Shown here one piece after another: positions 37,020-45,114 of a stretch of DNA of 64,000 nucleotides. The notes under the pieces are model-generated. The model saw nothing but the letters and a program-made list of their open reading frames with translations. It ran no database searches and was not told where the DNA came from. Where the stretch lies: NCBI GenBank assembly GCA_009692555.1, contig SHYY01000005.1, positions 3,860-67,859 on the forward strand, in the 5' to 3' direction. How positions within the stretch are numbered: the stretch's first letter is position 1; the number at the start of each line of letters is the position of its first letter. Made by a program: the position numbers and the translations under genes. The stretch comes from Myxococcales bacterium (lineage in GTDB: Bacteria > Myxococcota_A > Polyangia > Palsa-1104 > SHYY01).

Positions 37020-37174
37020 GCTTGGATCGGCTACCCGGGGGCCGCGTAATGCGACGACCCGACCGACTCCCGGCAAAGCCGTGTGCGGGAAATCCGCACG
37101 CACGGTTTGAAAGGGGGTCCTACCTTTTCACCAACGACCAACCGTCCGACAGTGAAAGGGTAGGATCTACCAAT
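37020..37174 (+). mobile_element. Group II intron 3' fragment (maturase tail, domains V and VI)
   Basis: WIGYPGAA* (TAA 37047-37049). DV aagccgtgtgcgggaaatccgcacgcacggttt with AGC triad and GAAA loop. DVI stem cctaccttttcac / gtgaaagggtagg with bulged A at 37169. Ends AAT. Confidence 0.9.
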
Positions 37175-38273
37175 GAGCGCGACCCCCGCAGGCTGGATCG
37201 GCAGCCGTCGCTTCGACCTCGCCTTCTTCTTTGTCGGGACCCCGGTCGCCGCGGTGGCGGTCGGGGCACTCGTCCTCGCGCTTCCGTCGCTGCTGGTCCC
37301 CCTGTGGTGGCTATGGACGGTGCTGATCGAGGGGCCGCACCTGTGCGCCACCTGGGCCCGCACCTACCTCGATCCCGGCGAGCGCCGACGCCGGCGTGGA
37401 CTCCTGATCGCCAGCCTCGGCTTCATCCTCGCGGGCCCGGTGGTGTGGGCGGTCGCGCGCGTGACTGACTCGCCGTCGGTGTTCGAGGGCCTTGTCCTCT
37501 TCGCCGCGCTGTGGAGCTGGCACCACGGCGTGCGGCAGCAGTACGGGCTGCTGGCGATCTACCAGCGCCTCGCCGGCGTCGAGGAGCGGGTCCGCCGGAT
37601 CGACCGCTGGTTCCTCTACGGGGCGCTGTGGGGCCTTTTCCTGCTCGCCCTCGCGGCCCTGCCGGCCAATCGGTTGGTGCTCAAGCTGCCCGCTGCGATG
37701 CCCCGCGAAGCCGAACTCGTGATCCTCACGGGCGAGGGGCTGCTCGGCGCCTGGGTGCTCGCTTACGGGGGGCTGCTGGTCGCCCGCCATCGCCGCGGCG
37801 ATCCGACCCGCCCGGGGCTGTTCGCGCTCTTGCCCGTCGTCGGGGTCGCGCTGTTTGTTGCCTTCGTGGTAGGGCGCTTCGAGCCGCTCCTTCCGCGTCC
37901 GCAGAGCCCGGAGCAGTTCGTGCTCGCGGTGACCCTGGTCGGCGGCCTCTCGCACGGACTCCAGTATCTTGGAATCGTGTTCGCGGCGAATGAGCGCCGC
38001 TACCGGGTGGCCGCGCCGTCGCTGGCCGCCACCCTCGGCCGCTCGCCGCTCCGCGCCTTCCTCGCCTTTGCCGCTGCCTCGGGGCTCTACTTCGCCCTCA
38101 ACGCCGCGCGATCCGGCGTCCCTTCGCTGGCGCTATTCCAGAACGACAGCGAGGCGGCGCGCTTCGCCCTCGCGCTCTACTGGGGCGTCTTCTTCCACCA
38201 CTTCTACCTCGACCAGAAGATCTGGCGCGTCTCGCGCGATCACGCGCTGCGGGCGGAGCTGCAGATCGCCTGA
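37173..38273 (+). CDS. Polytopic membrane protein with His motifs, unknown function
   Basis: About 9 TMs; GPHLCATWARTYLD, WHHGVRQQYG, SHGLQY, FHHFYLDQKIWR. Confidence 0.8.
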   Translation: MSATPAGWIGSRRFDLAFFFVGTPVAAVAVGALVLALPSLLVPLWWLWTVLIEGPHLCATWARTYLDPGERRRRRGLLIASLGFILAGPVVWAVARVTDSPSVFEGLVLFAALWSWHHGVRQQYGLLAIYQRLAGVEERVRRIDRWFLYGALWGLFLLALAALPANRLVLKLPAAMPREAELVILTGEGLLGAWVLAYGGLLVARHRRGDPTRPGLFALLPVVGVALFVAFVVGRFEPLLPRPQSPEQFVLAVTLVGGLSHGLQYLGIVFAANERRYRVAAPSLAATLGRSPLRAFLAFAAASGLYFALNAARSGVPSLALFQNDSEAARFALALYWGVFFHHFYLDQKIWRVSRDHALRAELQIA

Positions 38274-38432: not shown

Positions 38433-39548
38433 TTAGTCGAACGGGTCGAAGGTCTCGTCCTCGAGCTTCTGGCGTCGCGCCGCGTGGACCTGGCGGACGT
38501 AGCGCACCAGGGCGTCGACGTAGCGGTCGAGCGGTGGGCAGCGGACCCCGGTGCCGTCGAGGAGTTCGAGGGTGTTCCTGCAGTTGTAGATCGCGAGGTG
38601 GTTGAACGACTCGAGGAACGCAAGGGGGGCGCGCGCGAGGCGTGACAGGCCCGGCGCGCGCAGCACCGCCCGCGCCAGCGCCGTGGGGATCGCTCCGCGT
38701 GGCATCTTCTTGTCGGCGCTGCGGGCGATCAGCTCGTACGCCGTGCGCGCGGCGAAGGGCGCCGGATCGGTGAGGTGGAAGGTCTTTCCGACGGCGCGCG
38801 GGTCGCGGCCGAGCGCGTGGGCAGCGTCGACGACGAAGTCGATCGGGACGAGGTGGAGCGGCGCCGAGCCACGCCCCGGCAGCGGGAGGTGCACATCGAG
38901 CGGTGAGGCGACGATCAGCACCAGCAGGTAGTAGGGACCGTCGAACTTGTCGATCTCGCCGGTCTTCGAGTCGCCGACGATCACCCCGGGGCGAAAGATC
39001 GTCGTCGGCAGGCGGCGCGAGGCATCCTGCACCAGCCTCTCGGAGCGAAACTTCGTCTCCTCGTAGAAGTTGCGGAAGCGCTGTCCGGAGTCGAGCTCCT
39101 CCTCGAGGATCACCCCCGAGCGGGCCCCCGACACCAGGGCGGTCGAGTAGTGGCAGAGGCGCCGGAGCCTGCCGCACTCGAGGGCCAGCTCGATCACCGA
39201 GCGCGTGCCCTCGATGTTCACCCGCGTCGCCACCTCGCGCTTGACGCCGCGGTAGTAGATCGCCGCCAGGTGATGGATCGCGGTCACCTCGGCGGCGATC
39301 TCCTTGTACTCGCCGCCGCTCAGTCCGAGGTCCATGTCGCACACGTCGCCCTCGACGACCGTGACCCGCTGCCTCGCCGCGGGCCCGAGATCGCCGAGGA
39401 ATTCGTCGGCGCTGGCGCGGAACTTGGGCCGCACCAGGAGGAAGATGCGCTCCTTCGGGTCGGCCTCGAAGAGCTTGCGGGCCATCCGCTTGGCGGTGAA
39501 GGCGGGGAAGCCTGTGACGAGGGAGACGTCGGATTCGGTCTTCAACAT
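38433..39548 (-). CDS. Extended SDR / NAD-dependent epimerase (thioester reductase-like)
   Basis: LVTGFPAFTA, VEGDV, HLAA, VNIEGT, YEETKF, RPGVIVGDS. Confidence 0.85.
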   Translation of the reverse strand: MLKTESDVSLVTGFPAFTAKRMARKLFEADPKERIFLLVRPKFRASADEFLGDLGPAARQRVTVVEGDVCDMDLGLSGGEYKEIAAEVTAIHHLAAIYYRGVKREVATRVNIEGTRSVIELALECGRLRRLCHYSTALVSGARSGVILEEELDSGQRFRNFYEETKFRSERLVQDASRRLPTTIFRPGVIVGDSKTGEIDKFDGPYYLLVLIVASPLDVHLPLPGRGSAPLHLVPIDFVVDAAHALGRDPRAVGKTFHLTDPAPFAARTAYELIARSADKKMPRGAIPTALARAVLRAPGLSRLARAPLAFLESFNHLAIYNCRNTLELLDGTGVRCPPLDRYVDALVRYVRQVHAARRQKLEDETFDPFD

Positions 39549-39598
39549 TGCGTCGCTAGCCTACCGCCGACCGCTTGCAGCCGACAGTCCGGAACCGG

Positions 39599-40207
39599 TC
39601 AGGACGGGCCTCCGACGACGACGCGCCACACCGCGGCAACTGCCTTTCGGGTCTCCTCGATGGGTCCGCCGTTGTCGATCACCCAGCCGGCGGCGGCGAT
39701 CTTCTCCGCCAGCGGCGCCTGAGCATCGATCCGCTGCTGCACCTGCGCGGGATCGAGGCCGTCGCGTGCGATCAACCGCTGCCGCTGCACCTCGTCGGGG
39801 GCGGAGACGACGATCAGTCCACCGAGGGCCCGGTGGATCCCGTTCTCGACCAGCAGCGCGGCCTCGTACACCACCACCGCGATCCCGCGGGCGCTCGCCT
39901 CGCCGATCCGGCGCGCGGTCTCGGCGGCGATCCGCGGGTGGAGGATCGCGTTCAGCGCTCCCCGTCGCGCGGGATCGGCGAACACGATCGCGCCGAGCTT
40001 CTTGCGATCGAGCTGCCCCATCTCGTCGAGGATCTCCTGCCCGAAGGCGCCGACGATCTCGGCGAGCGCAGGCTGGCCGGGCGCCACCAGATCGCGCGCC
40101 ACCTGGTCGGCGTCGATCACCTCCGCCCCGAGCTCGCGCAACATCCCAGCGACGGTCGACTTCCCGCTGGCAATGCCCCCGGTCAGCCCGATGACGCGCG
40201 TGGCCAC
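39599..40207 (-). CDS. coaE: Dephospho-CoA kinase
   Basis: IGLTGGIASGKSTV, IDADQVAR, LDRKKLGAIVF, LNAILHPRI. Confidence 0.96.
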   Translation of the reverse strand: MATRVIGLTGGIASGKSTVAGMLRELGAEVIDADQVARDLVAPGQPALAEIVGAFGQEILDEMGQLDRKKLGAIVFADPARRGALNAILHPRIAAETARRIGEASARGIAVVVYEAALLVENGIHRALGGLIVVSAPDEVQRQRLIARDGLDPAQVQQRIDAQAPLAEKIAAAGWVIDNGGPIEETRKAVAAVWRVVVGGPS

Positions 40208-40297
40208 CTCCGTCGTCTACCATGGGCCGACGGCGGGGGCGCGGGAATCGACCGGGTGTGAACGGGAATCGTCCGTTGGGCTGCCGCCGCTCGGCGT

Positions 40298-40765
40298 CTA
40301 GCGCCGGAGAGCAGGATCGTCCACCTCGGTGCAGTGCCGCACGAGCTCGTCGAGCAGGTCCCTCCACTCCGGGCGGGGCCGTCCCCCACGGTCGAGCCCC
40401 TCCAGGCCGCAGTGGCCATCACCGCCCGGCTGGTCGCGGAGCTCTTCGAGAGGATCCTCGACGACTCGCAGCGGGGTGGCGTTGAATCGGACCCTCACCG
40501 CCAGCACACCTTTCACCGGCAGCAGGTAGGCTCGCAAGGGCCTTTGCGCCCGCCTGAACTCGACCGCCTGACCGGTCGTCGTGCGGGCCTGGTCCCAGAC
40601 CGAGACCCGCACCGGGCCACCTCTTCGCTCCGCGTCCTTCTTGTCGTCGGAGGTGGGCTCGATCGCGAGGCTGTTCGGGAATCGGGCGCCGTCGGGAACG
40701 AAGCGAGGTTCATTCAGGACCAGCCGTAGCGTGATCGCGGATGGAGTCAGTTCGAGGGCCGGCAT
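40298..40765 (-). CDS. Hypothetical protein, possible ADP-ribosyltransferase-fold toxin
   Basis: Third gene of a tight cassette; LRLV / VSVW / GHCGLEGL motif spacing. Function is an inference. Confidence 0.6.
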   Translation of the reverse strand: MPALELTPSAITLRLVLNEPRFVPDGARFPNSLAIEPTSDDKKDAERRGGPVRVSVWDQARTTTGQAVEFRRAQRPLRAYLLPVKGVLAVRVRFNATPLRVVEDPLEELRDQPGGDGHCGLEGLDRGGRPRPEWRDLLDELVRHCTEVDDPALRR

Positions 40766-40770
40766 TCGAC

Positions 40771-41214
40771 CTACGAGACCAGAGCGACCACATGATTGAG
40801 CAGGTGAACCGGAACGCCGCGCACCCGTTCGTCGTCGGTGCCGTCCCGGTCGCCGGAGAGTCGGTCCTTGTAGAACCAGTGCAGCGTGCCGTCCGAGTAC
40901 ACGTCCACCTCGAGGTACTTCCTCTCGGTGTCCCAGTAGAGCTGAACCGCACCCTCGGGGGTCGGCTGCGTGACAGGCAGGCCGAGGCGGGGCCCCACGT
41001 AGTCACGGATCTGCTTCCACACCTGTCGGACGCGGGAGAGGTGGTGGGGCTGAAACAGGCGTCGCTCGGCGAGATCATCGACGAAGCGGTGCCACGGCCG
41101 ATCTGGATCCAGGGAAACGGCTGCGCTCAAACGTCCCGCGTCGGCCTGCATCAGGACGATGTTCGGCTTTGTGTTCGTCACGGTCGAGCTGTAGTCGTGG
41201 ACGATTGGGAACAC
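40771..41214 (-). CDS. Hypothetical protein, middle gene of the cassette
   Basis: Starts 1 nt after the upstream stop; C-terminal PVTQPTPEGAVQLYW...LEVDVYSDG. Confidence 0.65.
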   Translation of the reverse strand: MFPIVHDYSSTVTNTKPNIVLMQADAGRLSAAVSLDPDRPWHRFVDDLAERRLFQPHHLSRVRQVWKQIRDYVGPRLGLPVTQPTPEGAVQLYWDTERKYLEVDVYSDGTLHWFYKDRLSGDRDGTDDERVRGVPVHLLNHVVALVS

Positions 41215-41215
41215 G

Positions 41216-41953
41216 CTACGCCTCCTCGCGCCCGATGAGATCGCGACACCTGTCGGTGATCGCTCCTTCGAACGCCGTGACTATGGCCTGGTGGGCGGCA
41301 TCCTGCCAGGCCCGCATCTCCTCCCATTCGAAGGCGATATCGGGGCTTTCCGGGGTGCGCACGTACAGGTCGAGAAGGTAGATCGGCCGCGTGCCCGCGT
41401 CCAATCCCTGGAAGACGAGGGCGAGGATCGTGGTGCCTCGCACGACCTCGCCCACCTGAAGCTGCATTGCGAACGGGCGATGCCGGTCGCTGAGCTTCGG
41501 GTAGACGTAAAAGTAATCGGCCGGATCGGCCGCGATGTCCGGCAGGAGCACCTGGTTGAGGTATCGCTGGCCCAGGAAGAGCACGCTCGATGGACGCGTC
41601 CGTTCGGCGTACTCCTCGACCAGCGGGCGCATCTCGGGAACGTAGCTGAGGTAGCTGGTGTAGGGCCTGAGGGCGTTGAAGGCGCACAGGTCTCGGCCGA
41701 ACTGGACCATGCGGCTCCTGTCCGCGCTCCACATCCGCGTTCGCGTGACACGTGGTTCAGGCGTCGCGCTGACCCCTCCTGGCCCGACCTGGAAGGTTGT
41801 TCTCGCGACGTTGATTTCATCTCGGACTGTGTAAGGGCCGCCGATCGTCCCCATGATCTGACCGGTCGTGGCCTCGTCCCACTTCGGGACGCTCGTCGGG
41901 GCAAACTCGTACACTGCCTCGGCGATCGGCGCGTTCTTGTAGCGCGTTGGCAC
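41216..41953 (-). CDS. TIGR04255-like family protein
   Basis: GTG start; YKNAPIAEAVYEF, QFG...FNALRPYTSY, LGQRYLNQV, LLDL, AHQAIVTAFEGAIT. Confidence 0.75.
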   Translation of the reverse strand: MPTRYKNAPIAEAVYEFAPTSVPKWDEATTGQIMGTIGGPYTVRDEINVARTTFQVGPGGVSATPEPRVTRTRMWSADRSRMVQFGRDLCAFNALRPYTSYLSYVPEMRPLVEEYAERTRPSSVLFLGQRYLNQVLLPDIAADPADYFYVYPKLSDRHRPFAMQLQVGEVVRGTTILALVFQGLDAGTRPIYLLDLYVRTPESPDIAFEWEEMRAWQDAAHQAIVTAFEGAITDRCRDLIGREEA

Positions 41954-42011
41954 ATCCGCTTGTATTCCGCTCGGGGTGGATGTGCAAGGGGCCTGCGAGG
42001 GCCGCGATGCC

Positions 42012-43412
42012 TCAGCCGCGGAGCGGGATCGTGAGCACGATCCGGCAGCCGATTTCGCGGTCTCCTTCGACGCGCGCGGCCTCCGCCCGGATCGTCCCGC
42101 CGTGGACCTCCGCCACGCGACGGGCAAGCGCCAGCCCGAGGCCGTAGCCTCGCGCAGCGCCGGCATCGCCGGAGGTGCGGACCGCACGGTAGAAGGGCTG
42201 GAAGACGCGCTCGCGATCGGCCGCGGCGATCCCCGCCCCCTCGTCGGTGACGGTGAGTTCGAGGGACTCCTCCCTCCGCGCCGCCGCCAGGACGATCGGC
42301 GGGGCCCCGTACTTGGCGGCGTTCTCGACCAGGTTCCACAGGGCGCGCCGGAGCAGCGCCGCGTCGGCCTCCAGCTCCAGCCGCGGGCCACCAACCGCCC
42401 GCACCGCGATCCCCGCCACCGCCGGATCGTGGCCGGCGCGCTCCGCCAGCTGGGCGCACAGCGCTTGCGTGTCGACGCGATCGAGGTGCAGCGGCAGGGC
42501 GGCGGCGTCGATCCGCGACATGGTGAGCACATCATCGATCAGCCGGTCGAGCTCGCCGATGTCGCCCTCGATGTCGCGCACCCGCGCCTCGGTCCCTTCG
42601 CCCTGCGGCAGAAGCTCGAGCGCCATCCGGAGGCGCGCCAGCGGTGAGCGGAGCTCGTGCGACACGTTGGCGAGCAATTCTTTTTGCGTTCGCACCAAAC
42701 CCTCCACCCGCTCTGCCATGTCGTTCCACGCTCGGGTGAGCTCCTCCAGCTCGTCGGGTCGATGATGCCGACGGTGGGGTCGCCGCGGCCCGCACGCCGG
42801 CCCGTCCGGTCCACCCGGGACCGGGATCCGCACCGCCAGATCGCCGCCCCCGAACCGCCGGCTAGCCTCGGTGAGCCGCATCACCGGCCGCGAGATCCGG
42901 CGCGCCAGCGGCGCGGTCGCCAGCGCCACGATGACCAGCAGCAGCACCAGCGCGCCCAGCGGCCGCCACTCGCTCCGCATCCGGAAGCGCTGCACCACCG
43001 ACACCTGAACGATCCCGCGCAGGGTGCCGCCCTCGTCGCGGATCGGCGCGGCAGCGTACCAGCCGCGCGGCCCCGGCAGGACGTCGCTCGGTCCGGCGCG
43101 GATCGCCTGCACCTGCTCCGGCGACGGCAGCGGCAGCGCTTGCCCGACGACGTCGAGCGGCTGTCCTGCCACGTCGCGCACCGTCAGGTCGATATCCAGA
43201 TCGACGGCGAGCCGCCGCACCAGCGCCTGCCGCGCCGCCTGGTCCCCAAAGCGTTCGCCGATCGCCGACGCCGCGTGCAGCGCCAGTCGCCGCGCCATCC
43301 CATGCACGAACGCCGAGCGCCAGCCGGTCGCGAACACCACGCCGCTGGCCATCCCCGCGACGAGCAGAACCCCGAGGAAGTGCAGGTAGATCCGGCTGTG
43401 GAGGCGGCGCAT
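42012..43412 (-). CDS. HAMP sensor histidine kinase (CpxA/BaeS-like)
   Basis: SHELRSPLARL, NLVENAAKYG, DEGAGI, FQPFYR, GYGLGL. Confidence 0.95.
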   Translation of the reverse strand: MRRLHSRIYLHFLGVLLVAGMASGVVFATGWRSAFVHGMARRLALHAASAIGERFGDQAARQALVRRLAVDLDIDLTVRDVAGQPLDVVGQALPLPSPEQVQAIRAGPSDVLPGPRGWYAAAPIRDEGGTLRGIVQVSVVQRFRMRSEWRPLGALVLLLVIVALATAPLARRISRPVMRLTEASRRFGGGDLAVRIPVPGGPDGPACGPRRPHRRHHRPDELEELTRAWNDMAERVEGLVRTQKELLANVSHELRSPLARLRMALELLPQGEGTEARVRDIEGDIGELDRLIDDVLTMSRIDAAALPLHLDRVDTQALCAQLAERAGHDPAVAGIAVRAVGGPRLELEADAALLRRALWNLVENAAKYGAPPIVLAAARREESLELTVTDEGAGIAAADRERVFQPFYRAVRTSGDAGAARGYGLGLALARRVAEVHGGTIRAEAARVEGDREIGCRIVLTIPLRG

Positions 43413-44116: not shown

Positions 44117-44947
44117 CTACCCGCCCTGGGGGTGGTGCGCGCGCACGAAGTCGCCGATCGCCCGCCTCTGGGCGGGGCCGAGCGCGTCGTGGGCCTCGGT
44201 GACCGCCTGGACGATCGCCTCGCCGGCGGCCCGGGCCTTCGCCTGGTGTTCCGCGCGCAGGGCCGCGATCTTGTCCGAGTCGAGCCGGTCGGCAGCGAAG
44301 AGATCGAGGGCCGCGTCGAGCGCCGCGCCGGGGTCGGGTCGTCCCGCCTCGAGGGCCGCGAAGGCGCGATCGCGCGCGCCGTGAATGGTCTCCCGCTGGG
44401 CCGCCGTGGCCTGGGCCGCATCGAGCGCATCCTCGATCCGCGCGGCCGCCATCCGCTTCATGAAGCCTGCGTGCCGGCCGCCCCGATGCTCCGGCCGGTG
44501 CGCGCGCGCCCACTCCACGAGCGCCTTGCGCTGCTGCGCGTCGAGGGTGGCGTGGACCTCGGTGATCGCATGGGCGATCGCTTCGCCCGTGCGCGCCGCC
44601 GCCTCATCGTGGGCCGCGCGGAGGGCCTCCACCTGGGCCGGGTCGACCCGGTCCGCCTCGAACAGGGCGACCGCCCGCTCGATCCGTGGTCCGCGCTCGC
44701 CGTGCGCCTCCTCCACCGTCGCGAAGGCGCGGTCGCGGGCGGCGTGGATCGCGTCCCGTTGGGCCGGGGTCGCCGCCACCGCGCCCAGCGCCTCCTCGAT
44801 GCGCGAGGAGAGGTGCTGCTTGAACATCGCGTGGCCGCGACCGGGATGGTGCCCGCCGCGCGCGTGGGCGACGGCGGCGATCGCCCCCACCGACGCGAGA
44901 GCGACGGCCAGGATTCCGACCTTCAGGTTGGAATGCTTCATGGTCAT
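44117..44947 (-). CDS. Periplasmic Spy/CpxP-like protein with duplicated domain
   Basis: Signal peptide; two copies of RIE.AL.A..AT.AQR..IH.ARDRAF...EAI..A.TE.H..L...QR; upstream of the RR-HK pair. Confidence 0.75.
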   Translation of the reverse strand: MTMKHSNLKVGILAVALASVGAIAAVAHARGGHHPGRGHAMFKQHLSSRIEEALGAVAATPAQRDAIHAARDRAFATVEEAHGERGPRIERAVALFEADRVDPAQVEALRAAHDEAAARTGEAIAHAITEVHATLDAQQRKALVEWARAHRPEHRGGRHAGFMKRMAAARIEDALDAAQATAAQRETIHGARDRAFAALEAGRPDPGAALDAALDLFAADRLDSDKIAALRAEHQAKARAAGEAIVQAVTEAHDALGPAQRRAIGDFVRAHHPQGG

Positions 44948-45114
44948 GGGCTGCCTCCGGGTCATCCTAGCAAGTTCGCCAGGTCGCGAACCAGTGTGGT
45001 GCGCGCGCATCAAGAATGCTTTGCGCCCGCGTAAAGTTTCGTGAAGGCCGGAAGGCCGATTGGCCTCACTCGGACCCCAACCCCCGGGGTGTGATCCAAA
45101 GTGCTCGGCGCGAC

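What the first reader, a model, noticed from the sequence alone, without database searches (positions are those of the whole stretch)
40298..41953. Candidate undescribed three-gene defence / toxin-antitoxin-chaperone-like cassette (TIGR04255-like + unknown + ART-like)
Seen: three co-oriented genes (245, 147 and 155 aa) separated by only 1 and 5 nt, visibly less GC-rich than their neighbours, wedged between a two-component operon and coaE. Gene 1 has TIGR04255-type motifs, a sporadically distributed family of unknown function. Gene 2 has a low-structure N-terminus and a small P..EGAVQLYW...LEVDV domain. Gene 3 shows an R...SVW...GHCGL pattern reminiscent of ADP-ribosyltransferase-fold toxins. 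Established: tripartite toxin-antitoxin-chaperone systems with ART toxins (CmdTAC) act in anti-phage defence. Inference: an analogous system in which the TIGR04255 protein is the sensor or chaperone instead of SecB.
Basis: partly seen in the sequence, partly recalled or inferred. Interest (0 to 1): 0.78.

Follow-up and report, generated by a model that had tools for sequence, protein, structure and literature searches.

The report
TIGR04255-led ART-fold toxin–antitoxin-like cassette
Three tightly packed genes inserted between a sensor-kinase operon and coaE look like a horizontally acquired toxin–antidote pair, whose likely toxin has the fold of NAD-using ADP-ribosyltransferases, preceded by a helper gene that also leads other effector gene pairs in other bacteria.

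Summary
In detail: three minus-strand genes (245, 147 and 155 aa; gaps of 1 and 5 nt) with GC 0.64-0.67 against 0.70-0.76 in the flanks.

- **Gene 1** is a TIGR04255 protein (62 bits, cut-off 30).
- **Gene 3** matches no Pfam, NCBIfam, PADLOC or PHROGs family. It belongs to a family of 471 clusters. Its pLDDT-97 model has an ADP-ribosyltransferase fold, nearest the NAD-binding lobe of KptA/Tpt1 (Z 8.3). R14, S55 and H118 are near-invariant.
- **Gene 2** is disordered over residues 1-33, followed by a small alpha/beta domain. It sits directly upstream of a gene-3 homolog in 49 of 51 loci, so genes 2 and 3 form the core module.
- **TIGR04255** leads the pair in at least 13 examined loci, three of them beside type I restriction-modification genes. 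In 25 of 30 other TIGR04255 loci it leads unrelated two-gene sets, including PIN and PtuB-like HNH effectors.

Best reading (0.55): a toxin–antitoxin-like or defence module with a new ART-fold effector and a modular third component. Toxicity, binding and phage defence are untested. The SecB/CmdTAC analogy is architectural only.

The parts
41216..41953 (-). Gene 1: TIGR04255-family protein, 245 aa, GTG start. It is the leader gene of the cassette.
   Evidence: NCBIfam TIGR04255 gives 62.1 bits (cut-off 30), E 6.7e-17, over the full model length. There is no Pfam, PADLOC or PHROGs hit. Close homologs (62-73% identity) appear to lie on the same contigs as gene-2 and gene-3 homologs, judged by shared contig lengths and consecutive locus tags.
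40771..41214 (-). Gene 2: 147-aa protein with a disordered N-terminal tail (residues 1-33) and an alpha/beta domain (residues 39-147). Candidate antitoxin or immunity partner of gene 3.
   Evidence: A homolog sits directly upstream of a gene-3 homolog in 49 of 51 loci. The AF2 model has pLDDT 82.7, with residues 39-147 confident. Fold matches are only middling: Med17C Z 8.1, TriTu immunity protein Z 6.0, frataxins Z 5.6-5.8, type III secretion chaperones Z 4.0-4.3. There is a weak PADLOC match to the C-terminus of PDC-M32A (E 1.3e-4).
40298..40765 (-). Gene 3: 155-aa ART-fold protein of an unclassified family. Candidate NAD+-using toxin or effector.
   Evidence: The AF2 model has pLDDT 97.4 and pTM 0.91. 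VIA-align gives 11 KptA/Tpt1 entries at Z 6.8-8.3, rmsd 2.2-3.0, 92-98 residues, always the C-terminal lobe. About 44 of the 50 best representative chains are ART-superfamily proteins. The family has 471 clusters at E<=1e-3, with conserved R14, S55, D104 and H118. No Pfam hit was found in any of 128 members.
41954..42011 (-). 58-nt spacer between the histidine-kinase stop and the gene-1 start. A possible promoter region for the cassette, not shown.
   Evidence: The sigma-70 consensus scan found 0 promoter-like sites in 39400-42400, which is uninformative for this organism.

Best explanation
The cassette is a horizontally acquired conflict module built around a two-gene toxin–antitoxin-like pair.

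- **Gene 3** is the effector. It is a stand-alone ADP-ribosyltransferase-fold domain, nearest to the NAD+-binding lobe of KptA/Tpt1, with a conserved R14 / S55 / D104 / H118 set. It most likely binds NAD+ and either ADP-ribosylates a cellular target or consumes NAD+, which would stop growth. A nucleic acid end or RNA is my first guess for the target, given its nearest structural neighbours.
- **Gene 2**, always encoded just upstream, is the cognate protein inhibitor that holds gene 3 inactive.
- **Gene 1** (TIGR04255) is a third, modular component. Across bacteria it precedes different two-gene effector sets. I infer that it senses or gates the system, possibly through the N-terminal tail of gene 2. 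On a trigger such as phage infection the effector would then be released, giving an abortive-infection type of defence or an addiction function.

Shown here: gene structure, family membership of gene 1, predicted fold of gene 3, strict gene 2-gene 3 linkage, recurrent TIGR04255 leadership, and sporadic distribution.

Inferred: NAD+ use, toxicity, neutralisation by binding, the role of gene 1, and defence.
For: **Fold of gene 3**
- pLDDT 97.4.
- KptA/Tpt1 C-lobe at Z up to 8.3, rmsd 2.2, 93 residues.
- The next hits are Tse2 Z 6.2, VPA0770 toxin 5.8, AvrPphF ORF2 5.6, DarT 5.2, Scabin 5.0, TreX 4.9, Xre-RES toxin 4.8, MbcT 4.2 and ParT 4.0.
- About 44 of 50 rows are ART-superfamily proteins, judged by entry title plus my own knowledge.

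**Conserved candidate active-site residues**
- R14 in 127/128, S55 in 124/128, D104 in 118/128, H118 in 128/128.
- All are present in the window copy.

**Pair linkage**
- A gene-2 homolog lies directly upstream in 49 of 51 loci from two collections, not de-duplicated. The spacing is from a few bases of overlap to about 18 nt where ORF calls are clean.
- The linkage also holds in the phylum sample.

**Triad recurrence**
- L004, L013, L015, L016, L020, L021, L022 and L029 carry it. NCBIfam confirmed TIGR04255 in 6 of 6 full-length copies tested.
- L094, L096 and L097 are intact and L098/L099 is decayed.
- In addition, five contig lengths are shared by the three homolog lists, and locus tags JWM53_5999/6000/6001 are consecutive.

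**Defence-type context**
- Type I RM genes lie beside the triad in L015, L021 and L029.

**TIGR04255 as a modular leader**
- In 25 of 30 other TIGR04255 loci it is followed by tightly packed co-directional genes.
- 18 loci have an HTH-containing family B and 17 also have family C.
- L079 has an 80-aa protein plus PIN. L091 has a 167-aa protein plus a PtuB-like HNH (E 3e-22).
- These downstream genes are unrelated to genes 2 and 3.

**Sporadic distribution and low GC**
- Gene-3 family found in 2 of 41 relatives and 7 of 401 genomes of the phylum.
- TIGR04255 found in 59 of 401.
- The cassette was not found with gene 3 in the same-genus genome G001 (95% complete), where another gene lies upstream of coaE.
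- GC drop across the cassette.

**N-terminal tail of gene 2**
- Gene-2 tails in triad loci share a Ser/Thr-rich stretch, a Pro and a hydrophobic run that pair-only copies lack. This was noticed after looking, so it is a post hoc observation.
Against: - No experiment or computation here shows toxicity, NAD+ binding or binding between the proteins.
- Foldseek found no PDB match at E<=1e-3. The tool itself rates Z of 7-8 as middling. The case rests on how consistently the hit list is ART-superfamily.
- The residue set is not a canonical ART triad. I could not superpose residues on a solved active site.
- Gene 2 has no recognisable DNA-binding domain, unlike most type II antitoxins. Its fold matches are unspecific.
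- In Thermoanaerobaculia/Acidobacteriota the pair sits in a conserved lolC-lolD-pair-clpC setting in several MAGs and contigs (L005, L025 and L026 by Pfam; L007, L008 and L009 by ORF reading). This looks more like a stable chromosomal gene pair than a mobile defence island.
- No relatives were found in viral contigs or plasmids with the queries used.
- There is no integrase or transposase beside the window copy.
- The fold and role of TIGR04255 remain unknown.
Confidence: 0.55

Rival explanations
1. This is the reader's specific version: a toxin–antitoxin–chaperone system analogous to CmdTAC. TIGR04255 would replace SecB as a chaperone that stabilises the antitoxin through an addiction tail. 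Phage products would titrate it and so free an mRNA-modifying ART toxin.
For: - The three-gene architecture recurs.
- Gene 3 has an ART fold.
- Gene 2 has a disordered tail (residues 1-33). Its sequence pattern tracks the presence of TIGR04255.
- TIGR04255 accompanies several unrelated effector pairs, much as SecB-like chaperones accompany several TA families.
- CmdTAC is described as an mRNA ADP-ribosyltransferase defence system; I saw only the abstract, PMC11618068.
Against: - Gene 1 has no SecB-like or any other Pfam hit.
- The gene order is helper-first, and the tail is N-terminal rather than a C-terminal ChAD.
- Most of the gene 2 + gene 3 family works without TIGR04255. A 23-row pair-only clade is seen, and 0 of 19 ORFs flanking pair-only copies (most of them upstream) are TIGR04255.
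- No relation to CmdT was detected by sequence. PADLOC gave no hit, but its 2023 release may not hold CmdTAC.
Confidence: 0.25
2. Same pair logic, but gene 3 is an NAD+ glycohydrolase or phosphorylase that kills by NAD+ depletion, like RES/MbcT or Tne2-type toxins, rather than a transferase acting on a macromolecule.
For: RES-family and NADase toxins are among the structural neighbours: Xre-RES Z 4.8, MbcT 4.2, Tne2 4.0, SPN 3.8. The protein is small with a single domain and no extra target-binding lobe. The conserved Arg/Ser pair fits NAD+ holding.
Against: The nearest neighbours by a clear margin are KptA/Tpt1 C-lobes (Z 6.8-8.3), which transfer ADP-ribose to nucleic-acid phosphates. Pfam RES did not hit gene 3 or any of 128 relatives.
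Confidence: 0.2
3. Genes 2 and 3 are a non-toxic housekeeping or regulatory pair. For example, a NAD+/ADP-ribose-linked modification or repair enzyme with its regulator. TIGR04255 would be merely a neighbouring gene of mobile origin.
For: The pair has a conserved chromosomal position between lolD and clpC in several Acidobacteriota MAGs and contigs. No toxin family signature was found by sequence. KptA/Tpt1 itself is an RNA-processing enzyme.
Against: - Distribution is very patchy: 7 of 401 genomes in the phylum.
- Copies decay in place. Gene 3 is split in L012, L042-L044 and G127, and truncated in L049/L050.
- Copies lie beside RM genes, ParA+RelE, a transposase and a TIR-Roc-COR protein.
- Gene 3 aligns only to the C-lobe of KptA/Tpt1 (chain residues about 85-180) and has no room for the N-terminal lobe.
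- The 1-8 nt spacing or overlaps between TIGR04255 and gene 2 recur across divergent loci.
Confidence: 0.12
4. An interbacterial effector–immunity pair of the Tse2–Tsi2 type, delivered by a secretion system.
For: Tse2 is the second-best representative hit (Z 6.2, 114 aligned residues, 20% identity, similar size). Several other neighbours are Rhs or T6SS ART toxins with immunity proteins: TreX, TreTu, RhsP2. Gene 2 resembles the TriTu immunity protein weakly (Z 6.0).
Against: Gene 3 has no PAAR, Rhs, VgrG or other delivery domain and is only 155 aa. The candidate immunity gene precedes rather than follows the toxin. No secretion genes were seen beside any of the loci whose neighbours I scanned.
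Confidence: 0.05

Closest known systems
KptA/Tpt1 RNA 2'-phosphotransferase (ART superfamily), C-terminal NAD+-binding lobe
   Same: It is the best structural match for gene 3: 11 entries at Z 6.8-8.3, rmsd 2.2-3.0 over 92-98 residues. KptA/Tpt1-like enzymes can ADP-ribosylate 5'-phosphate ends of RNA and DNA, and 'KptA/Tpt1-like toxins' have been hypothesised (passages of PMC11833690).
   Different: Gene 3 aligns only to the C-lobe (chain residues about 85-180) and has no N-terminal RNA-binding lobe. There is no Pfam hit to the family, and identity is 8-16%. The conserved residues are R/S/D/H rather than the family's own catalytic set; the latter is recalled, not tested.
ART-fold toxins with protein antidotes: DarT–DarG, ParT–ParS, MbcT–MbcA, Xre–RES, Tse2–Tsi2, TreTu–TriTu
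   Same: All combine a small ART-fold toxin with an adjacent neutralising gene. All of these toxins appear among the structural neighbours of gene 3 (Z 4.0-6.2). The gene-2 domain weakly resembles TriTu (Z 6.0, rmsd 2.8, 77 of 87 residues).
   Different: No sequence relation to any of them was found. Gene 2 is not a macrodomain, Xre-HTH, DUF2384 or Tsi2-like helical protein by any search here. A third gene (TIGR04255) is attached in the window's lineage.
Toxin–antitoxin–chaperone (TAC) systems, including CmdTAC
   Same: Both have a three-gene layout in which one component recurs with different toxin–antitoxin pairs. CmdTAC has an ART toxin used in phage defence (abstracts of PMC11618068 and bioRxiv 10.1101/2024.02.24.581848 in the listing).
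   Different: The recurrent component here is TIGR04255, not SecB-like. It is encoded first. The disordered tail of gene 2 is N-terminal. Chaperone action is pure inference.
Modular upstream regulators of immune operons (CapK/CapS)
   Same: [quoted passage not shown] This mirrors TIGR04255 preceding PIN, HNH, ART-fold and other modules.
   Different: There is no sequence or domain relation. TIGR04255 has no kinase, STAS or HTH signature in Pfam.

Membership tests
TIGR04255 (NCBIfam), gene 1 | Whole-protein score above the curated cut-off, over the full model | tested here: met
   62.1 bits against a cut-off of 30. Residues 4-240 match model positions 1-251 of 252. The genome-level search gave the same result.
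ADP-ribosyltransferase (ART) superfamily, gene 3 | The ART fold (split beta-sheet NAD+-binding core) | tested here: met
   Tested on a predicted model only (pLDDT 97.4). The KptA/Tpt1 C-lobe matches at Z up to 8.3. About 44 of the 50 best representatives are ART-superfamily proteins. Foldseek alone gave no hit at E<=1e-3.
ADP-ribosyltransferase (ART) superfamily, gene 3 | One of the canonical catalytic patterns (H-Y-E, R-S-E or H-H-h; patterns recalled from the literature) | tested here: inconclusive
   An Arg on the first strand (R14, 127/128) and a Ser on the next core strand (S55, 124/128) fit R-S-x by order. The third position is unclear: H118 is invariant, while E122 is kept in only 87/128. 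No residue-level superposition was possible.
ADP-ribosyltransferase (ART) superfamily, gene 3 | NAD+ binding and ADP-ribose transfer or NAD+ hydrolysis | not testable with these tools
   Needs a biochemical assay.
KptA/Tpt1 (PF01885), gene 3 | Two-lobe enzyme with an N-terminal RNA-binding lobe, plus a sequence match to the family model | tested here: not met
   Gene 3 is 155 aa and aligns only to chain residues about 85-180 of KptA/Tpt1. No Pfam hit was found for it or for 128 relatives.
RES, DarT and ParT toxin families, gene 3 | Sequence match to the family models | tested here: not met
   No Pfam hit at E<=1 for gene 3, and none at E<=0.01 in 128 relatives. Structural Z is only 4.0-5.2.
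Type II-like toxin–antitoxin pair, genes 2 and 3 | Two small adjacent co-directional genes inherited as a unit | tested here: met
   Gene 2 lies directly upstream of gene 3 in 49 of 51 loci. The two exceptions hold truncated gene-3 remnants.
Type II-like toxin–antitoxin pair, genes 2 and 3 | A toxic product neutralised by direct binding of the partner | not testable with these tools
   Needs expression and rescue tests and a pull-down. The one complex job gave no verdict (see Tried and rejected).
Type II-like toxin–antitoxin pair, genes 2 and 3 | Antitoxin with a DNA-binding domain for autoregulation (usual, not universal) | tested here: not met
   Gene 2 has no HTH, RHH or AbrB hit. The model shows two helices, a five-strand sheet and a C-terminal helix.
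TAC / CmdTAC | SecB-like chaperone as the third component | tested here: not met
   Gene 1 is TIGR04255 and has no Pfam hit, SecB included.
TAC / CmdTAC | Chaperone-addiction extension on the antitoxin | tested here: inconclusive
   Gene 2 has a disordered N-terminal 33 residues. Its pattern is shared among triad copies. Position and sequence differ from a C-terminal ChAD, and binding was not shown.
Known or candidate defence systems in PADLOC-DB v2.0 | Match of the components to a system's models | tested here: not met
   Genes 1 and 3 gave 0 hits at E<=1. Gene 2 gave only a partial match (residues 70-117) to the C-terminus of PDC-M32A, E 1.3e-4. Newer DefenseFinder or PADLOC releases could not be consulted.

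The most novel reading that the evidence does not exclude
TIGR04255 proteins define an unrecognised, widespread class of three-gene conflict systems. In this class a common leader protein docks onto the Ser/Thr-rich, strand-forming N-terminal tail of a variable middle protein and so controls interchangeable effectors. The effectors seen here are a new R-S-H type ART-fold toxin (this window), PIN, PtuB-like HNH, and an unknown 'WRQG...CD' family. The window's cassette would be the ART-armed member, and gene 3 would found a new ART clade that modifies nucleic acid ends.
Probability: 0.25. Interest if true: 0.82.

Novelty: new variant of a known kind. Interest (0 to 1): 0.64.

Why it matters
- **A new ART-fold family.** It would add a sizeable family (471 clusters at 50% identity) to the ART toxins. 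No family library used here recognises it. Its conserved residue set is unusual, and it has its own dedicated partner protein.
- **A role for TIGR04255.** It would give the first functional context for this 'sporadically distributed' family of unknown function. The family was found in 59 of 401 genomes of this phylum. The context would be as a modular leader of interchangeable effector pairs, a design principle so far known from SecB-type TAC systems and from CapK/CapS-type regulators.
- **Testability.** Both points can be tested directly with standard toxicity, rescue and phage-challenge assays in laboratory strains.

Tried and rejected
- **Complex prediction.** The verdict was 'no answer (no support, and no evidence against)'. 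The score was not specific in the control that replaced chain 1.
- **Sequencing runs.** No RNA holder is listed. Four DNA runs from two studies hold the stretch, and one may be the source. This says nothing on expression.
- **Sequence searches that found nothing real:**
  - PDB by profile for gene 3 gave only collagen-like noise; for gene 1 two hits at E 0.18-0.27.
  - PHROGs.
  - Plasmids by tblastn with gene 3.
  - Viral contigs with gene-3 and gene-2 alignments.
  - The BFVD viral fold library had no hit at E<=1e-3; a 'putative RNA 2'-phosphotransferase' of phage PaBG was a weak row.
  - ESM Atlas gave only unnamed clusters for gene 2 and TIGR04255 clusters for gene 1.
- **Metagenome scan.** The search for related loci with the 128-row alignment failed for lack of a conserved stretch. 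It was repeated with a 35-row alignment.
- **Synteny as an insertion test.** The flanks are rearranged or on separate contigs in G001-G003. No clean empty site could be shown. I can say only that the cassette was not found with the gene-3 query there and that coaE has a different upstream neighbour in G001.
- **Relation of the common TIGR04255 downstream families B and C to genes 2 and 3.** hhalign probabilities were 0.1-0.2%, so this is rejected.
- **Internal duplication in TIGR04255.** Not detected.
- **Promoter and terminator scan.** 0 promoter-like sites and 1 terminator-like site inside gene 1, at chance level.
- **Literature.**
  - 'TIGR04255' is in 0 papers of the library.
  - 'PDC-M32' is in 1 paper, which I did not read.
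  - Searches for KptA-like or Tpt1-like toxins and for ART-fold/three-gene/type I RM combinations turned up no description of this family.
  - I did not see supplements of any paper. bioRxiv supplements are closed, and lists of candidate defence systems there could mention these genes.
- **Fold of TIGR04255.** Not predicted.
Full report
**1. What is there**

The minus strand of 40298-41953 carries three genes read in the order gene 1 (41953-41216, 245 aa, GTG start), gene 2 (41214-40771, 147 aa, GTG start) and gene 3 (40765-40298, 155 aa, ATG start). They are separated by 1 and 5 nt.

Upstream on the same strand lie a response regulator and a HAMP/HisKA/HATPase histidine kinase, whose stop is 58 nt before gene 1. 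Downstream lies CoaE, 90 nt after gene 3. GC is 0.64-0.665 across the cassette and 0.70-0.76 on both sides.

**2. Gene 1**

Gene 1 is a full-length TIGR04255 protein: 62.1 bits against a cut-off of 30, covering model positions 1-251 of 252. It has no Pfam, PADLOC or PHROGs match. No solved relative was found by profile search, and I detected no internal repeat.

The term 'TIGR04255' occurs in none of the papers of the library searched. Its fold is therefore unknown here.

**3. Gene 3**

No family library recognises gene 3, and none of 128 relatives has a real Pfam hit. A word-based search found only 13 relatives. A profile search of 1.84 billion representatives found 471 clusters at E<=1e-3 and 267 at E<=1e-10, nearly all 140-170 aa long.

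With a 128-row alignment, AlphaFold2 gives a model at pLDDT 97.4 and pTM 0.91. Foldseek against the PDB gives no hit at E<=1e-3, although its weak top rows are KptA/Tpt1, AvrPphF ORF2 and pertussis-like toxins.

VIA-align gave clearer results:
- Against 48,161 representative chains, the best hit is a KptA at Z 8.1.
- It is followed by Tse2 6.2, mouse Tpt1 6.0, VPA0770 toxin 5.8, AvrPphF ORF2 5.6, DarT 5.2 and 5.0, Scabin 5.0, TreX 4.9, Xre-RES toxin 4.8, MbcT 4.2 and ParT 4.0.
- A long tail of cholera-, pertussis- and diphtheria-type toxins and PARP domains follows.
- By entry title and my own knowledge of these proteins, about 44 of the 50 rows are ART-superfamily members. I could not place six rows (VPA0770, CC0527, BC2332, SAIP, protein 6b, Rhs1-CT).
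- A second look at Foldseek's candidates gives 11 KptA/Tpt1 entries at Z 6.8-8.3, rmsd 2.2-3.0 and 92-98 aligned residues. In every case the match is to the C-terminal lobe, chain residues about 85-180.

The tool warns that Z of 7-8 is middling. What persuades me is the uniformity of the list, not the top score.

I conclude that gene 3 is a stand-alone ART-fold domain nearest to the NAD+-binding lobe of KptA/Tpt1. It is not a member of that family, because it lacks the other lobe and any sequence match.

Conserved residues are R14 (127/128), S55 (124, plus 4 Thr), an aromatic residue at 57 (128), D58 (111), T62 (116), D104 (118), G114, G117, H118 (128/128) and G123. E122 is kept in only 87 and C119 in 75.

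By position in the strand order, R14 and S55 fit the first two positions of an R-S-x pattern. The third position is unresolved.

**4. Gene 2**

Gene 2 also has no family. The one exception is a partial, weak match of residues 70-117 to the C-terminus of the 375-aa PADLOC candidate protein PDC-M32A (E 1.3e-4).

Its model, from 48 sequences, has pLDDT 82.7. Residues 1-33 are below 50. Residues 39-147 are confident and form two helices, a five-strand antiparallel sheet and a C-terminal helix.

Fold matches are unspecific: Med17 C-terminal domain Z 8.1, the TriTu immunity protein of the ART toxin TreTu Z 6.0 (rmsd 2.8, 77 of 87 residues), frataxins 5.6-5.8, and type III secretion chaperones including AvrPphF ORF1 at 4.0-4.3. 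Foldseek found nothing. I take from this only that it is a small protein-binding type of domain. The immunity and chaperone look-alikes are leads, not evidence.

**5. Linkage of genes 2 and 3**

Scans of one genome per species found 9 loci, and scans of metagenome contigs found 43 loci. Of these 52 loci, 51 have a gene-3 ORF by my HMM.

In 49 of those 51 a gene-2 homolog lies directly upstream on the same strand. The two exceptions, L049 and L050, hold a truncated gene-3 remnant.

The rows are not de-duplicated. At least eight are repeats of another row (for example L007/L032, L011/L051, L040/L041, L042-L044, L047/L048, L027/L028). The tree held 41 distinct gene-3 sequences besides the window's own copy.

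In two loci the gene-2 domain is the C-terminal end of a much longer ORF upstream of gene 3. L093 is 482 aa with weak TPR hits. L054 is 837 aa with a weak AAA_22 hit, and its ORF boundary is uncertain in GC-rich DNA.

Genes 2 and 3 are therefore the conserved core module.

**6. Where TIGR04255 joins**

- A TIGR04255 gene lies immediately upstream of gene 2 in L004, L013, L015, L016, L020, L021, L022 and L029. NCBIfam confirmed it in 6 of 6 full-length copies tested, at 60-88 bits.
- None of 19 ORFs flanking the pair in pair-only loci (most of them upstream) is TIGR04255.
- In a 401-genome sample of the phylum, the gene-3 family occurs in 7 genomes:
  - Four, the window's genome included, have intact triads (L094, L096, L097).
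  - One has a decayed triad, with gene 3 split and gene 1 partial (L098/L099).
  - One has the pair only (L095).
  - One has the long gene-2 fusion (L093).
- The closest database homologs of the three window proteins share five contig lengths (2761, 9755, 12333, 22411, 989783). One set carries consecutive locus tags JWM53_5999/6000/6001. This implies further triads, although sharing a contig length is only an inference.
- In L096, a lower-GC genome, the three genes overlap by 4 and 8 nt.

On the gene-3 tree the triad label is clustered: 0 of 500 shuffles reach as few changes. A 23-row clade, mostly Acidobacteriota, is pair-only. At least two gains or losses are required, and the root is unknown. 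L017 and L023 are scored 'pair' only because their contigs end 56 and 132 nt upstream of gene 2.

**7. Context**

Triads lie beside type I restriction-modification genes in three loci:
- L015, with HsdM, a Bro-N protein and HsdR downstream.
- L021, with HsdS and HsdM upstream on the other strand.
- L029, with HsdM and HsdS upstream on the same strand.

Elsewhere triads lie next to ychF or an amino-acid permease.

Pair-only copies lie next to ParA plus RelE (L014), a DDE transposase (L010) and an LRR-Roc-COR-TIR protein (L034). In Thermoanaerobaculia-type loci they sit in a repeated lolC-lolD-pair-clpC setting. L005, L025 and L026 show this by Pfam. L007, L008 and L009 show it by my reading of the ORF starts.

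In relatives of the window's genome, gene 3 was found in 2 of 41. The other is a Polyangiaceae MAG of the same order, and it carries the triad on a short contig.

In the same-genus genome G001 (95% complete) the epimerase-coaE block is present, but a different gene lies upstream of coaE. The kinase and regulator are on other contigs. In G003 the regulator-kinase pair is followed by a membrane protein. The cassette is thus not part of conserved core synteny, though I could not show a clean empty site.

No relatives were found in viral contigs or plasmids with the queries used.

**8. TIGR04255 as a general leader gene**

TIGR04255 occurs in 59 of 401 genomes of the phylum (57 above cut-off) and in 0 of 14 control genomes. 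None of the 30 best loci has gene-2 or gene-3 relatives.

In 25 of those 30 loci, TIGR04255 is followed by tightly packed co-directional genes, with spacing from an 8-nt overlap to a 3-nt gap where starts are clear:
- 18 loci have a family 'B' of about 230-250 aa, two members of which have an HTH_3 hit. 17 of these also have a family 'C' of about 260 aa, which has a conserved WRQG...CD motif.
- Two loci share another pair.
- Five loci have unique pairs. These include an 80-aa protein plus a PIN-domain protein (L079) and a 167-aa protein plus a PtuB-like HNH nuclease at E 3e-22 (L091).
- Neighbours include HsdR (L066), an ABC-3C component (L081) and a HEPN protein (L091).

Families B and C are unrelated to genes 2 and 3 by profile comparison.

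Many of the middle proteins, like gene 2 in triads, start with a Ser/Thr-rich stretch followed by a hydrophobic run. I noticed this after looking and did not test it statistically.

**9. Mechanism**

The best-supported reading has four parts:
- Gene 3 is an NAD+-using effector.
- Gene 2 is its cognate inhibitor.
- In the window's lineage, gene 1 is an added modular component that couples the pair to some signal.
- The whole cassette is a mobile conflict module: a toxin–antitoxin, probably with abortive-infection-type defence.

Shown here are the fold prediction, residue conservation, gene linkage, modularity of TIGR04255, patchy distribution, decayed copies, low GC, and RM or TA neighbours.

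Inferred are NAD+ chemistry, toxicity, neutralisation by binding, any role for gene 1, and defence.

For the target, I lean towards nucleic acid for two reasons. The nearest neighbours (KptA/Tpt1, DarT) act on nucleic acids. KptA/Tpt1-like enzymes ADP-ribosylate phosphate ends (passages of PMC11833690). NAD+ depletion is the main alternative.

The CmdTAC analogy (abstract only) is architectural. No SecB-like protein or C-terminal addiction tail is present.

**10. What weakens this**

- There are no functional data.
- The residue set is non-canonical.
- Z-scores are middling, and the model was not checked against a solved active site.
- Gene 2 has no DNA-binding domain.
- The Acidobacteriota clade has a stable chromosomal position.
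- The fold of TIGR04255 is unknown.
- The single complex-prediction job returned no verdict, so I do not use it either way.

**11. Novelty**

ART-fold toxins with protein antidotes and three-component TA systems are both known kinds. Three things appear to be new:
- The gene-3 family, unrecognised by Pfam-A (2025 copy), NCBIfam r20, PADLOC-DB 2.0 and PHROGs v4.
- Its dedicated partner family.
- The observation that TIGR04255 proteins lead interchangeable effector pairs.

I found no paper describing any of these. I could not consult the newest defence-system catalogues or any supplements.

I rate the finding a new variant of a known kind, with interest 0.64.

Noticed in passing
L062-L073, L075, L076, L081, L082, L084, L087 (loci): There is a widespread three-gene operon: TIGR04255, then family B (about 230-250 aa, HTH_3 in L081 and L087), then family C (about 260 aa, conserved WRQG...CD motif). 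It is present in 17-18 of the 30 best TIGR04255 loci of the phylum. Representative B and C proteins have no Pfam or PADLOC system match.
   Followed up: partly
L079:803-1491 (-) and L091:378-1468 (-): Here TIGR04255 is followed by an 80-aa protein plus a PIN-domain protein (L079), and by a 167-aa protein plus a PtuB-like HNH nuclease (L091, PADLOC E 3e-22). A HEPN-domain gene lies on the other side in L091.
   Followed up: partly
L093:1953-3401 (-) and L054:1013-3526 (+): The gene-2 domain occurs at the C-terminal end of long ORFs directly upstream of gene-3 homologs. One is 482 aa with weak TPR hits, the other 837 aa with a weak AAA_22 hit. These may be sensor fusions. The ORF limits are unsure in GC-rich DNA.
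   Followed up: partly
L012:5971-6436; L042-L044; L098/L099 (G127:C58); L049/L050: These are decayed copies. Gene-3 homologs are split into two frames or truncated, and in G127 the TIGR04255 gene is also partial. This suggests repeated loss of the module.
   Followed up: no
L005, L007, L008, L009, L025, L026, L032: In Thermoanaerobaculia-type MAGs and contigs, the gene 2 + gene 3 pair sits in a repeated lysS-lolC-lolD-pair-clpC arrangement. This position is unusually stable for a putative toxin–antitoxin pair.
   Followed up: partly
L034:4113-6866 (-): A 917-aa LRR-Roc-COR-TIR protein lies about 1 kb downstream of a gene 2 + gene 3 pair.
   Followed up: no
window 44117-45013 (-): A 298-aa protein with a Metal_resist (CpxP/Spy-like) domain and an internal duplication lies directly upstream of the response regulator and kinase. 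Its two halves hit the same regions of relatives in tblastn. It is conserved with them in G001 and G003.
   Followed up: no
window 37173-38273 (+): A 366-aa multi-pass membrane protein has no Pfam family. To my eye, a similar protein follows the kinase in G003 (L057:3660-4748, minus strand). This was not aligned.
   Followed up: no
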